This document shows positions 15,134 through 56,385 of a stretch of DNA of 64,000 nucleotides, one piece after another. Within the stretch, counting starts at the first letter, position 1; the number at the start of each line of letters is the position of its first letter. The stretch is from Eledone cirrhosa. Lineage: Eukaryota. Under the pieces are notes generated by a model that was not told where the DNA came from, ran no database searches, and saw only the letters and a program-made list of their open reading frames with translations. Position numbers and translations under genes: made by a program. Location: NCBI GenBank assembly GCA_964016885.1, contig OZ024746.1:23684001-23748000 (forward strand), in the 5' to 3' direction.

Positions 15134-15473
15134 CATCATCATCATTTCAGTTTACGTTCGCTTTTTCCCTGCTTGCAAGGGTGGGACGGGAACTGATTCT
15201 GGCTTGATTTCTACAGCTGGATGCCCTTCCTAACACCAACCTCATTTACAGTGAGTGCTGGGTGCTTTTTTGCCATGGCACCTCCACGACCACTTTGCAG
15301 TGGAATGATATGGACCCCAGTCCCTATCATCTCATTTCTACAGCTGAGTAAACTGGAGCAATGTGAAATAAAGTGTCTTGCTCAAGGAAACAACACATCA
15401 CCCGGTCTGAGAATTGAACTCACAACCTTTCGATTGCAAGGCCAATGCTTTAACCACTAAGCCATGTGCCTCC
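15134..15473 (-). mobile_element. SINE B copy
   Basis: Near-identical to the 8401-8744 copy. Confidence 0.9.
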
Positions 15474-31500: not shown

Positions 31501-31693
31501 ACCAGTGGTAGTTGTAATAAATAAGATTTGTGCAATAGGCCATGTCATGTTAAAGCTTCTACTGTCCCATAAATACATTTCATTGGACTGGACTGCATGG
31601 AACCCCCCCTAAAAACATGGTTAGCTACTGTTATTGAGAAGAGAAGGGGTTTTTTTATGGCTCCATGGAGATGGAAATAGAGTCTTGTTTGTC

Positions 31694-31732
<39 letters not shown>

Positions 31733-31740
<8 letters not shown>

Positions 31741-32312
31741 ATACTTGGGGAGGGTCATATTTGTGTAATATTGCCAGAATTAATAACAGAACACACTCAC
31801 TGTTTGGTTGGTTTTCGCTTCTCGCTTCTGTGTCTTTTATATCGGTAATCTAACTTACTCGGTCCTCAATGTTGCCATTGACTGACCGACGGTCAAAAAT
31901 AATACAGATACAATATAGACACAAACACATATATATAGTTTATCATAAATCTTTCGTTGCACATCTGCATGGCGTAGACATATAATACAACAGGAGGAAA
32001 CGATAACACCACTGACGATGTTGCAGATGTGCAACGAAAGATTTATGATAAACTATATATATGTGTTTGTGTCTATATTGTATCTGTATTATTTTTGACC
32101 GTCGGTCAGTCAATGGCAACATTGAGGACCGAGTAAGTTAGATTACCGATATAAAAGACACAGAAGCGAAAAGCGAAAACCAACCAAACAGTGAGTGTGT
32201 TCTGTTATTAATTCTGGCAATATTACACAAATATGACCCTCCCCAAGTATAACAATATTTGTTTCGACACACGATTTCATATAAAAAACCTTGCAAAACT
32301 AATTCATCGCCG

Positions 32313-32313
<1 letters not shown>
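31733..32313 (+). mobile_element. Fold-back element 1: 237-bp inverted arms + hammerhead + ORF-start tail (Penelope-like inverted pLTR)
   Basis: Arms 31733-31969 and 32022-32258 (one mismatch seen), 52-nt spacer, unpaired 3' tail to 32313, (TA)n on both sides. Confidence 0.8.
32006..32050 (+). ncRNA. Minimal hammerhead ribozyme core (imperfect stem I)
   Basis: acca-CTGACGA-t-gttgca/gatg/tgcaac-GAAA-gatt-TA-tgat. Confidence 0.65.
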
Positions 32314-32377
<64 letters not shown>

Positions 32378-32568
32378 CCAAAACATGGTTAGCTGGTGTT
32401 GTTGAGAGATGAAGAGAATTTTCATGGCTCCATGGAGAAGGAAATATAGTCTTGTGTGAATATATATGTATATATACACACACATATATTTATATACATA
32501 TATTTATATACATATACACACATATATTTATATACATATATGGTTTATACACACACACACACACACAC

Positions 32569-32642
<74 letters not shown>

Positions 32643-32840
32643 AATAGGAACCAGTAAGACCCCGACGGCTGAGCTGAAGCCGTTTCGACGGCTAATTCTG
32701 GACCAGAATTAGCCGTCGAAACGGCTTGAGCTCAGCCGTCGGGGTCTTACTGGTTGCTATTACCCACTCTACTACCTCAAGTATTGAGTACTTTGGTGCG
32801 TTATGGTCCACCTGGTTCCTTACCACATTTCCTTCGTTAT
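32643..32840. mobile_element. GC-rich 119-bp palindrome with unpaired 3' tail, inside (TA)n
   Basis: Palindrome 32643-32761 centred on 32702 with two mismatches; contains gtcGAAAC; the tail carries gtattgagtac. Confidence 0.75.
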
Positions 32841-43141: not shown

Positions 43142-43700
43142 ATATTGTTATACTTTGGGAGGTCATGTTGCCAATAAGAATCACACGCACCAGTTGCTTT
43201 CACTTCAATTTAATTTAATATATATTTATAAATTACAAATTTATAAATTTCTGGTTGTTGGTTGGTTCCACAACCAGATAGTTGTTTATATATCTATAGT
43301 CATAGTTCTTTCGTCACACACTCTGTGACCTCTTCAGTGACTGGGGATTTCTTCTTCGTTACTGTGCCTTTCCTTTCTTCTATCCTACACAAACAAAATG
43401 GCGTAGGATAGAAGAAAGGAAAGGCACAGAAACGAAGAAAGAAATCCCCAGTCACTGAAGAGGTCACAGAGTGTGTGACGAAAGAACTATGACTATATAT
43501 ATATAAACAACTATCTGGTTGTGGAACCAACCAACCAACCAGAATTTATAAATTTGTAAATTTATAAATATATATTAATTAAATTGAAGTGAAGCAACTG
43601 GTGCGTGTGTTTCTTATTGGCAACATGACCCTCCAAAGTATAACAATATCGGTTTCAACACACGATTTCAGATAAAGAATCTTGCTAAACAAATTCAGAA
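43142..43700 (+). mobile_element. Fold-back element 2: ~247-bp inverted arms, hammerhead in both arms, ORF-start tail
   Basis: Arms 43142-43388 and 43403-43649, 14-nt loop acaaacaaaatggc; termini and tail are homologous to element 1. Confidence 0.82.
43450..43494 (+). ncRNA. Minimal type-I hammerhead ribozyme (mirror copy on the minus strand at 43298-43342)
   Basis: agtca-CTGAAGA-g-gtcac/agagtgt/gtgac-GAAA-gaac-TA-tgact; stem I agtca/tgact is perfect. Confidence 0.8.
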
Positions 43701-43712
43701 ATGTATATAATA

Positions 43713-56042: not shown

Positions 56043-56385
56043 ATTCATTCATTTCATTTCACTTTACGTCCGCTTTTCCCTGCTTGCAAGGGTGGGACGG
56101 GAACTGATTCTGGCTTGATTTCTACAGCTGGATGCCCTTCCTAACACCAACCTCATTTACAGTGAGTGCTGGGTGCTTTTTTTGCCGTGGCACCTCCACG
56201 ACCACTTTACAGTGGAATGATAGCGACACCAGTCCCTATCATCTCATTTCTACAGCTGAGTAAACTGGAGCAATGTGAAATAAAGTGTCTTGCTCAAGGA
56301 AACAACACATCACCCGGTCTGAGAATTGAACTCACAACCTTTCGATTGCAAGGCCAATGCTCTAACCACTAAGCCACGTGCCTCC
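56043..56385 (-). mobile_element. SINE B copy
   Basis: Full-length match to family B. Confidence 0.9.

What the first reader, a model, noticed from the sequence alone, without database searches (positions are those of the whole stretch)
32233..32313. Hidden conserved ORF start in the tails of both fold-back elements
Seen: 32233 reads MTLPKYNNICFDTRFHIKNLAKLIH. 43625 reads MTL(P)[21 protein letters not shown] after restoring one missing base. Several differences are synonymous third-position changes (att/atc, aaa/aag, aac/aat, gca/gct), while the neighbouring non-coding arms have diverged. Inference: this is the N-terminus of the autonomous partner's protein, retained as the pseudo-LTR tail, and it gives a probe for finding the mobilising element. 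The supplied ORF track misses it.
Basis: partly seen in the sequence, partly recalled or inferred. Interest (0 to 1): 0.72.

Follow-up and report, generated by a model that had tools for sequence, protein, structure and literature searches.

The report
Retroelement gene start inside terminal tail
The short reading frame at the end of both fold-backs is the true start of the reverse-transcriptase/endonuclease gene of two Penelope-like jumping-gene families, and it likely sits there because copying of these elements begins inside the gene's first 30 codons; this layout is already in print, so the finding is real but ordinary.

Summary
32233-32313 reads MTLPKYNNICFDTRFHIKNLAKLIHRR. The copy at 43625 gives the sister peptide only after a frame shift, because it lacks one base that 28 of 30 sister copies have.

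The interpretation also holds. In other copies of the same genome the frame runs on into ORFs of about 1,200 aa, each broken once in the copies read. [quoted passage not shown] Exact junction counts:
- tail to ORF body: 321 (family E1) and 416 (family E2)
- tail to (TA)n: 1,945 (E1) and 9,962 (E2)

DNA similarity between the two families starts 3 nt before the ATG. Seven of 10 differences in codons 1-25 fall on third positions. Distant homologues share the N-terminus, and residues 11-28 are predicted as the first helix of a confident helical domain.

The fold-backs are not a separate non-autonomous family. They are 5'-truncated inverted insertions of these PLEs, with variable turn points. Copies end at two discrete sites, about +26 and +81 to +86 from the ATG.

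The architecture is published: Arkhipova 2013 (the pLTR holds the first 12 aa, 22 with the tail) and Frangieh 2024 (reverse transcription initiates inside the ORF; the tail lies between two start sites). Earlier notes of this scan already describe PLE fold-backs in this genome.

Verdict: a new member of a known kind.

The parts
31704..31732 (.). (TA)n microsatellite on the left of E1 (target site)
   Evidence: sequence
31733..31969 (-). E1 inverted arm: a 5'-truncated, tail-less copy of the PLE 3' UTR in reverse orientation. 31733-31758 is the reverse complement of the ATG plus 8 codons.
   Evidence: 237 nt, 100% complementary to 32022-32258; matches the 3' UTR of full-length copies
31970..32021 (+). 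E1 'loop': 52 nt of 3' UTR present only in the direct copy, so the direct copy is 344 nt (31970-32313)
   Evidence: E1 positions 237-581 align co-linearly with the pLTRs of L062 and L063
32012..32039 (+). Hammerhead-core-like motif CTGACGA-N17-GAAA with a 6-bp stem II; not confirmed as a ribozyme
   Evidence: sequence; no Rfam hammerhead match at E<=10
32022..32258 (+). E1 direct arm: 3' UTR of the PLE up to the first end site (+26)
32233..32313 (+). Start codon plus 26 codons of the PLE ORF (MTLPKYNNICFDTRFHIKNLAKLIHRR), here orphaned and reading into (TA)n
   Evidence: the same 27 codons open long ORFs in L061, L062 and L129; 321 exact tail-to-ORF junctions genome-wide
32259..32313 (+). One-sided 55-nt 'tail' (codons 9-27), lying between the two alternative end sites
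   Evidence: absent from the inverted arm; 1,945 exact tail-to-(TA)n junctions
32314..32374 (.). (TA)n microsatellite on the right of E1
   Evidence: sequence
43142..43388 (-). E2 inverted arm (older, with indels), tail-less
   Evidence: arms 43230-43353/43439-43562 at 94% and 43142-43228/43563-43649 at 80%; sequence
43403..43649 (+). E2 direct arm: 3' UTR of the second PLE family
   Evidence: 88-90% identical to both pLTRs of L064
43455..43483 (+). Hammerhead-core-like motif CTGAAGA-N18-GAAA; its stem II differs from E1's by compensatory changes; not confirmed as a ribozyme
   Evidence: sequence; no Rfam hammerhead match at E<=10
43625..43702 (+). E2 copy of the ORF start, broken by a 1-base deletion in codon 3/4; tail 43650-43702
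   Evidence: 28 of 30 sister loci have the extra C; 416 exact tail-to-ORF junctions

Best explanation
The 27-codon frame is the real N-terminus of the single RT/GIY-YIG protein of two related Penelope-like element (PLE) families. It ends each insertion because, by inference from the Anolis element PAc, reverse transcription likely starts at two internal sites of a multi-unit transcript that lie inside the next unit's first about 30 codons.

Shown:
- In full-length and tandem copies the order is 3' UTR, ATG, 27 codons, rest of the ORF, with no microsatellite in between.
- The pseudo-LTR therefore contains the start codon.
- Copies end at two discrete places, about +26 and +81 to +86 from the ATG. 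The 55 nt between them is the 'tail'.
- Most copies are 5'-truncated, and many carry an inverted, usually tail-less partner. That combination makes the fold-backs E1 and E2 of the window.

Inferred:
- The endonuclease nicks both strands of a (TA)n target and both 3' ends prime cDNA.
- Both end sites carry (A)TAT, which would pair with the TA primer.
- The first 27 codons serve both as protein (helix 1 of the N-terminal helical domain) and as the RNA site where the RT binds and starts. That double duty would explain why they are the best-conserved stretch between the two families.

The orphan copies in the window code for nothing.
For: ORFs that begin with the peptide:
- L062: 741 aa then 489 aa.
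- L064: 369 aa then 919 aa.
- L061: 182 aa.
- L129: three units spaced 4,147 bp, each starting MTLPKYNN directly after the previous 3' UTR.

PLE identity of the protein:
- Motifs YVDD, PTDKSGR, RWN/RWS, CX4CxxC, two Cys between VVY and YIGET, and HH downstream.
- GIY-YIG 23.9 bits against a cut-off of 22.6 on L064.
- RVT_1 19.4-19.5 bits, E 9e-4.
- A profile of 18 homologues hits a solved RT at E 3e-4.
- 111 homologues, several named 'reverse transcriptase domain-containing'.

Evidence that the peptide is coding:
- The N-termini of P0041, P0022, P0016 and P0005 align from Met1.
- Codons 1-25 have dN 0.09 and dS 0.45, and differences fall 2/1/7 by codon position.
- Non-synonymous divergence is lower than in codons 28-130 (Fisher P = 8e-5).
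- Inter-family similarity starts at -3 of the ATG.
- AlphaFold on the N-terminal 200 aa gives pLDDT 85.5, with helix 11-28 above 90.

End sites:
- Of 30 arm ends taken unselected, 12 end at +21 to +26, 17 at +81 to +87, and 1 continues into the ORF.
- Genome counts: 11,457 tail-less ends, 9,962 tail-to-TA and 416 tail-to-ORF junctions for E2; 1,945 and 321 for E1.

Fold-back geometry:
- An inverted partner is present in 10 of 30 (E1) and 13 of 28 (E2) loci, with spans of 106-1,468 nt.
- The partner has a tail in only 3 of 23, against 46% expected (P = 0.001).
- L062 has an inverted copy abutting its upstream pLTR.

Literature:
- PMC11167929 (main text read): RT starts at two sites 111-118 nt into the ORF, the tail lies between them, both strands are cut and extended, and the first 172 nt of the ORF are required.
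Against: - No expression or translation data: no RNA run was listed for this sequence.
- Every full-length copy I read has at least one frame break, so none of the five copies read carries an unbroken ORF.
- The RT match to Pfam is below its cut-off, and four homologues gave no Pfam hit at all. The C-terminus of L062 gave no GIY-YIG hit.
- The drop in synonymous divergence in codons 1-27, which would show an added RNA-level constraint, is not significant (P = 0.06).
- The codon-position test rests on 10-14 differences between two families only.
- The tail RNA has no stable fold (z +1.45 and -0.65), unlike the AC-rich stem-loop reported for PAc.
- In PAc the start site is not homologous to the target, whereas here both sites end in TAT or ATAT. 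The mechanism may therefore differ, and the analogy is untested.
- No hammerhead was found by Rfam.
Confidence: 0.82

Rival explanations
1. The conserved 80 nt is only a cis-acting 3'-end signal for the reverse transcriptase. The open frame is incidental, and the protein would start at a later Met.
For: - The first 77 nt are more alike between families (87%) than the rest of the ORF (72-73%), and dS is lower (0.45-0.55 against 1.28).
- PAc needs the first 172 nt of its ORF as RNA (PMC11167929).
Against: - Differences favour third positions, 7 of 10.
- Homologues with about 25-29% identity over the N-terminal domain align from Met1 and share [FY][DN]TR and QA motifs.
- Residues 11-28 are a confident helix packed in the domain.
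- The ATG is the first in the open frame, with a stop 8 to 12 codons upstream.
- The next Met is at residue 97 (E1 type) or 43 (E2 type).
Confidence: 0.08
2. E1 and E2 are members of separate non-autonomous fold-back families (retrozyme- or SINE-like). They would share only the tail with an autonomous partner that mobilises them in trans.
For: - The two window copies look like compact hairpin units.
- Three of the 10 E1 fold-backs have similar spans (526, 531, 565 nt).
- Non-autonomous PLE derivatives that share 3' ends with autonomous families are known (Craig 2021, section 10).
Against: - The whole direct copy (344 nt), not just the tail, is co-linear with the 3' UTR of coding copies at 92-98%.
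- Fold-back spans range from 106 to 1,468 nt, and most loci have no inverted partner within 1.5 kb.
- Truncation points differ among loci.
Confidence: 0.08
3. The frame is a chance ORF in AT-rich sequence that stays open only because (TA)n has no stop codons.
For: In the window itself both frames simply run into the microsatellite.
Against: All the evidence above: 737 exact junctions into a long ORF, the homologues, and the codon-position bias.
Confidence: 0.01

Closest known systems
Pen2a_Av and related EN+ Penelope elements of Adineta vaga (Arkhipova et al. 2013, PMC3846280; passages of sections 6 and 11 read)
   Same: - pLTR-ORF-pLTR with an adjacent inverted pLTR and a one-sided tail.
- The pLTR holds the first 12 aa of the ORF, and the tail extends this to 22 aa.
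- N-rich inserts within ORFs are drawn in their Figure 2. The ORFs here also have an N-rich insert.
   Different: - Here 8-9 aa lie before the tail and 27 aa with it; the tail is 55 nt, not 31.
- The target is (TA)n, so no target-site duplication can be read.
- Copy numbers are in the thousands to tens of thousands, against single copies there.
PAc, Poseidon of Anolis carolinensis (Frangieh et al. 2024, PMC11167929; main text read)
   Same: - Insertions end inside the start of the ORF, at two neighbouring sites with the tail between them.
- Tandem multi-unit loci.
- Both target strands are used, which fits the inverted dimers.
- A long N-terminal helical region.
   Different: - Sites here are at about +26 and +81 to +86, not +111 to +118.
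- Both sites here share 2-4 nt (TAT/ATAT) with the (TA)n target, whereas PAc's site is not homologous to the cut DNA.
- No AC-rich stem-loop folds here, although an ACACAC block is conserved.
- PAc's hammerhead overlaps its start codon; none is seen at this ATG.
- The linker Zn-finger motif present here is absent from the Penelope/Poseidon clade according to Craig 2021.
(TA)n-targeting PLE clades of aquatic invertebrates: Hydra, Naiad, Neptune/Nematis (Craig et al. 2021, PMC8557442; sections 6 and 11, passages and supplement File S1 rows read)
   Same: - Insertion into (TA)n, pLTRs, inverted 5'-truncated copies and a one-sided tail.
- The hosts of the homologues (mollusc, echinoderm, coral) overlap the listed hosts.
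- RW(N/S) in place of GxKF/Y recalls Hydra.
   Different: - Not Naiad: the endonuclease is C-terminal.
- Not Hydra by its endonuclease: two Cys between GIY and YIG plus HH are present, the linker is CX4CxxC rather than CxCX5C, the motif is DKS rather than DKT, and the unit is 4.1 kb rather than under 3 kb.
- The linker fits Neptune/Nematis. No phylogeny was made.

Membership tests
Endonuclease-bearing Penelope-like elements (EN+ PLE) | Single ORF with a reverse transcriptase domain | tested here: met
   YVDD motif. RVT_1 at E 9e-4 but only 19.4-19.5 bits, below the 29.6 cut-off. A profile of 18 homologues hits a solved RT (9yfd_A) at E 3e-4. Sources name several homologues 'reverse transcriptase domain-containing'. 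Weak by each single measure.
Endonuclease-bearing Penelope-like elements (EN+ PLE) | GIY-YIG endonuclease fused to the RT (C-terminal in canonical clades) | tested here: met
   Pfam GIY-YIG 23.9 bits against a cut-off of 22.6 on the last 148 aa of the L064 ORF. The same stretch of L062 gave no hit, although it reads VVYSIRC...YIGET.
Endonuclease-bearing Penelope-like elements (EN+ PLE) | CCHH motif with two Cys between GIY and YIG | tested here: met
   VVYSIRCTEG(T/Q)CRN...YIGET, then LY(E/Q)HA..(H/E)H. Read by eye against the description in PMC8557442, not aligned to reference PLEs.
Endonuclease-bearing Penelope-like elements (EN+ PLE) | Partial tandems giving pseudo-LTRs, frequent 5' truncation, an adjacent inverted copy, and a one-sided tail | tested here: met
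   pLTRs in L062 and L064. Tandem units 4,147 bp apart. Inverted partners in 23 of 58 loci, with a tail on the partner in only 3 of 23.
Endonuclease-bearing Penelope-like elements (EN+ PLE) | Hammerhead ribozyme in the pLTR | tested here: inconclusive
   No Rfam hammerhead at the gathering score or at E<=10. Only a CUGANGA-N17/18-GAAA core with a 6-bp stem II is present in both families (sequence). I could not draw helices I and III for E1.
Endonuclease-bearing Penelope-like elements (EN+ PLE) | RT groups with PLEs as sister to telomerase RT in a phylogeny | not tested
   No reference PLE or TERT sequences were available to the tools.
Hydra clade of PLEs (Craig 2021) | CCHH absent; linker CxCX5C; DKT; unit under 3 kb | tested here: not met
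   CC..HH is present, the linker is CTNRKCIIC / CIDKKCITC (CX4CxxC), the motif is PTDKSGR, and the unit is about 4.1 kb.
Hydra clade of PLEs (Craig 2021) | Insertion into (TA)n; RWK motif; no GxKF/Y | tested here: met
   Ends abut (TA)n. RWN/RWS present and no G.K[FY] found. Craig 2021 also reports (TA)n targeting for Naiads (section 6 and supplement File S1); whether the RWK and GxKF/Y states are confined to Hydra was not checked.
Neptune/Nematis clades | CX2-5CxxC Zn-finger-like linker between RT and EN | tested here: met
   Clade placement by tree was not done.
PLEs with internal RT initiation inside the ORF (PAc type, Frangieh 2024) | Genomic 3' ends at two nearby sites within the first codons, with the tail between them | tested here: met
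   12 of 30 ends at +21 to +26, 17 of 30 at +81 to +87, 1 of 30 continuous; genome counts.
PLEs with internal RT initiation inside the ORF (PAc type, Frangieh 2024) | cDNA synthesis starts internally on the RNA in vitro | not testable with these tools
   Needs purified protein and RNA templates.
Non-autonomous retrozyme / fold-back repeat | Fixed unit without coding relatives, bounded by ribozymes | tested here: not met
   Variable spans and truncation points. Arms equal the 3' UTR of coding copies. No hammerhead found.

The most novel reading that the evidence does not exclude
In these (TA)n-homing PLEs the RT start signal is written into the first 27 codons, and both start sites end in (A)UAU that base-pairs with the nicked TA repeat. 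Unlike PAc, initiation would then be guided by target homology, and the N-terminal helix and the RNA signal would be locked together in evolution. A corollary: a PLE unit cut at its insertion ends lacks its own start codon, because the ATG is carried by the preceding unit's end. This may be why several curated PLE consensus sequences are annotated 'no start codon' (six Naiad rows in File S1 of PMC8557442).
Probability: 0.3. Interest if true: 0.45.

Novelty: new member of a known kind. Interest (0 to 1): 0.3.

Why it matters
Practical value. The roughly 80-nt end piece is a reliable handle for linking the tens of thousands of short (TA)n-flanked fold-backs in this genome to their coding parents. 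It also shows where each PLE ORF starts, which consensus-based repeat libraries can miss, because the start codon lies in the terminal repeat.

Biological value. It extends an arrangement shown biochemically for one lizard Poseidon element, and noted in rotifer Penelopes, to a linker-bearing, (TA)n-targeting lineage. Here the two end sites show microhomology with the target. It does not reveal a new kind of element or mechanism.

Tried and rejected
- Hammerhead ribozyme. Rfam was run on the whole window at gathering score, on E1 and E2 at E<=10, and on the full-length loci L062 and L064 at gathering score. There was no hammerhead match. The below-threshold matches were generic hairpin and AT-repeat matches to microRNA and UTR models; one, Plastid-psbJ-2 at 70.2 bits against a cut-off of 65.6 over 32578-32754, lies on the (TA)n run and the third fold-back E3. 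Hand-drawing helices I and III gave a passable helix I for E2 only.
- Structured RNA in the tail. Folding gave z-scores of -0.65, +0.67 and +1.45, so there is no stable fold.
- RNA evidence. No RNA holder was listed for L064:7802-8645, and no reads were laid.
- Pfam on the full ORF pieces gave only sub-threshold RVT_1. Pfam on four homologues gave nothing at E<=0.01.
- Hydra-clade membership was considered because of (TA)n targeting, and rejected on the endonuclease motifs.
- Generality. The third fold-back in the window (E3, 32644-32838) also has an ATG in its tail. In the four copies that continue with ATC and the same downstream sequence (L118, L119, L124, L128), out of 11 of the 12 fetched loci that gave a row, the frame stops at codon 14. 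That tail is not an ORF start, so the arrangement is not universal among this genome's PLE-like families.
- Earlier notes of the scan: nothing near this place or with this sequence.
- Literature on octopus repeats (PMC13282606, passages read) gives only PLE totals.
- Protein atlas look-up gave leads only: RVT_1, HTH_animal, DUF8422 and GIY-YIG clusters.

Full report
**What is at the coordinates**

- Element E1 is a perfect fold-back. Its arms are 31733-31969 and 32022-32258 (237 nt, 100% complementary), with 52 nt between them. (TA)n lies on both sides.
- The ATG at 32233 lies in the last 26 nt of the right arm. The frame continues through a 55-nt one-sided extension (32259-32313) and then into (TA)n. 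It reads MTLPKYNNICFDTRFHIKNLAKLIHRR.
- Element E2 (about 43142-43702) is an older fold-back of unrelated arm sequence. Its ATG at 43625 gives the sister peptide only across a one-base gap.
- 28 of 30 sister loci carry the extra C.
- The shared 33-nt motif occurs twice in the window, against 0 in 100 shuffles.

**Does a long ORF begin with the peptide? Yes.**

- A DNA search of the window's own 3.0-Gb genome with the E1 end found 41 matches at 95-100% identity (770 candidates, 40 scored).
- In 3 of 31 rows the sequence after the tail was not (TA)n but unique sequence that keeps the frame open. One of 30 E2-type loci did the same.
- I fetched longer stretches:
  - L062 has an ORF of 741 aa (stop to stop) starting ...NMTLPKYNNICFDTRF..., followed after one frame break by 489 aa.
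  - L064 has the E2-type peptide opening 369 aa, overlapping a 919-aa frame.
  - L129 holds three head-to-tail units exactly 4,147 bp apart. Each ORF starts with the peptide directly after the previous unit's 3' UTR, with no microsatellite between them.
- Exact-pattern counts over the genome, with reversed controls all 0:

| Junction | E1 | E2 |
|---|---|---|
| tail to ORF body | 321 | 416 |
| tail to (TA)n | 1,945 | 9,962 |
| tail-less arm end to (TA)n | not counted | 11,457 |

- The E2 arm end motif occurs 20,100 times.

**What the ORF encodes**

- Motifs read from the translations: PTDKSGR, RWN/RWS, YVDD, a CX4CxxC linker, VVYSIRC-x4-C-x6-YIGET, and two histidines downstream.
- Pfam:
  - GIY-YIG reaches 23.9 bits (cut-off 22.6) on the L064 C-terminus, but nothing on the same part of L062.
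  - RVT_1 reaches only 19.4-19.5 bits (cut-off 29.6).
  - Four homologues gave no Pfam hit.
- A profile of 18 homologues hits a solved reverse transcriptase at E 3e-4.
- A protein search found 111 relatives. The best is an Octopus vulgaris protein at 69% identity, with others from a sea cucumber and a coral. Several are named 'reverse transcriptase domain-containing'.
- An RT with a C-terminal GIY-YIG nuclease, pseudo-LTRs, inverted partners and a tail defines endonuclease-bearing Penelope-like elements (Craig 2021, PMC8557442, sections 3 and 6).
- By its nuclease motifs the element is not of the Hydra clade. It fits the linker-bearing Neptune/Nematis type. I made no tree.

**Is the peptide really coding?**

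- Between the two families, BLAST similarity begins 3 nt before the ATG. The 81 nt upstream are 25% identical.
- In codons 1-25 the 10 differences fall 2, 1 and 7 on codon positions 1, 2 and 3 (P = 0.02). dN is 0.09 and dS 0.45.
- The N-termini of distant homologues (P0041, P0022, P0016, P0005) align from Met1, with shared [FY][DN]TR and QA motifs.
- The ATG is the first in the open frame.
- AlphaFold on the first 200 aa, with a 7-row alignment, gives pLDDT 85.5. Residues 11-28 are the first helix of an all-helical domain.
- The first 27 codons are the best-conserved part of the ORF's 5' half:
  - 87% nucleotide identity, against 72-73% elsewhere.
  - Lower non-synonymous divergence than codons 28-130 (P = 8e-5).
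  - Lower synonymous divergence, but not significantly (P = 0.06).
- An added RNA-level constraint is therefore possible but not shown. The tail RNA has no stable fold.

**What the fold-backs are**

- E1 positions 237-581 (loop, right arm and tail) are co-linear with the pLTRs of coding copies at 92-98% identity. E2 matches those of L064 at 88-90%. The arms are the elements' own 3' UTR.
- Among loci found through the tail, 10 of 30 (E1) and 13 of 28 (E2) have an inverted end within 1.5 kb. Two further E2 loci had no central ATG and were dropped. Spans range from 106 to 1,468 nt, and truncation points differ.
- The inverted partner has a tail in only 3 of 23 cases, against 46% expected from the end counts (P = 0.001).
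- L062 itself has an inverted 5'-truncated copy abutting its upstream pLTR.
- These are therefore insertion products of the coding families. They are not a separate non-autonomous family.

**Where copies end**

- I sampled 30 E2 arm ends chosen only by an upstream motif:
  - 12 stop at +21 to +26 (11 of them at +26).
  - 17 stop at +81 to +87.
  - 1 continues into the ORF.
- At all junction types the element and (TA)n share 2-4 nt: AATAT at the first site, and CGCTAT or GAAATAT at the second.

**Comparison with what is in print**

- Arkhipova et al. [quoted passage not shown]
- Frangieh et al. 2024 (PMC11167929; main text read) show for PAc that:
  - reverse transcription starts at two adjacent internal sites 111-118 nt into the ORF;
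  - the tail is the stretch between them;
  - the first 172 nt of the ORF are required;
  - both target strands are cut and extended.
- The present families repeat this design at +26 and +81 to +86. What differs is the (TA)n target and the microhomology at both sites.
- My searches found no description of these particular families. The octopus repeat paper (PMC13282606, passages read) gives totals only.
- In File S1 of Craig 2021, six Naiad consensus sequences are annotated 'no start codon'. I suggest, untested, that a start codon carried by the preceding unit's end could explain some of them.

**Limits**

- There are no expression data.
- All full-length copies read have a frame break.
- The codon test rests on two families.
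- A hammerhead was not confirmed.
- Clade placement is by motifs only.
- Samples of 30 loci come from the start of contig C1 or from the best BLAST hits.

**Verdict**

The phenomenon is a known feature of Penelope-like elements. Earlier notes of this scan had already filed (TA)n fold-backs of this genome as PLE ends. None of those notes mentions the ORF start.

Noticed in passing
window 32644-32838: A third fold-back (E3): arms of about 57 nt plus an 85-nt one-sided tail, flanked by (TA)n. It belongs to another repeat family. The genome search gave 333 candidates, 515 exact tail-to-non-TA continuations, and tandem units about 3.54 kb apart. Its tail has an ATG ([13 protein letters not shown]), but in the four continuing copies read the frame stops at codon 14, so that tail is not an ORF start.
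   Followed up: partly
window 32012-32039 and 43455-43483: Both families carry CUGANGA-N17/18-GAAA with one spare base and a 6-bp stem II. The stem differs by compensatory changes (GUUGCA/UGCAAC against GUCACA/UGUGAC). This is hammerhead-core-like, but no Rfam model matches and I could not complete helices I and III for E1.
   Followed up: partly
window 31970-31977 and 43399-43406: The direct copies of both fold-backs begin, and so the hairpins turn, next to the same conserved octamer TGGCGTAG in the 3' UTR. Three of the 10 E1 fold-backs have similar spans. This could be a preferred template end or switch point.
   Followed up: no
window 31605-31690 and 32374-32455: Two stretches of about 80 nt, alike over their core (81% mean column identity over the 161 aligned columns; AAACATGGTTAGCT...GGCTCCATGGAGA...GTCTTGT), lie in direct orientation on either side of E1, each next to a TA/TG microsatellite. 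They may be ends of yet another microsatellite-associated repeat.
   Followed up: no
window 56315-56378 and 15407-15464 (minus strand): Two near-identical tRNA-like matches just above Rfam's gathering score (30.0 and 29.3 bits), lacking the acceptor ends. They are probably heads of a tRNA-derived SINE.
   Followed up: no
L062:1143-3344 and L064 (ORF residues about 245-410): The PLE ORFs hold a long Asn/Thr-rich low-complexity insert between the N-terminal helical domain and the RT. The frame breaks of the copies read lie near or after it. N-rich inserts are also drawn for rotifer Penelopes (PMC3846280, Fig. 2 legend).
   Followed up: no
Craig 2021 supplement File S1: Six curated Naiad consensus sequences, including one from Octopus bimaculoides that inserts in (TA)n, are annotated 'no start codon'. 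An ATG carried by the preceding unit's end, as seen here, would produce exactly that annotation.
   Followed up: no
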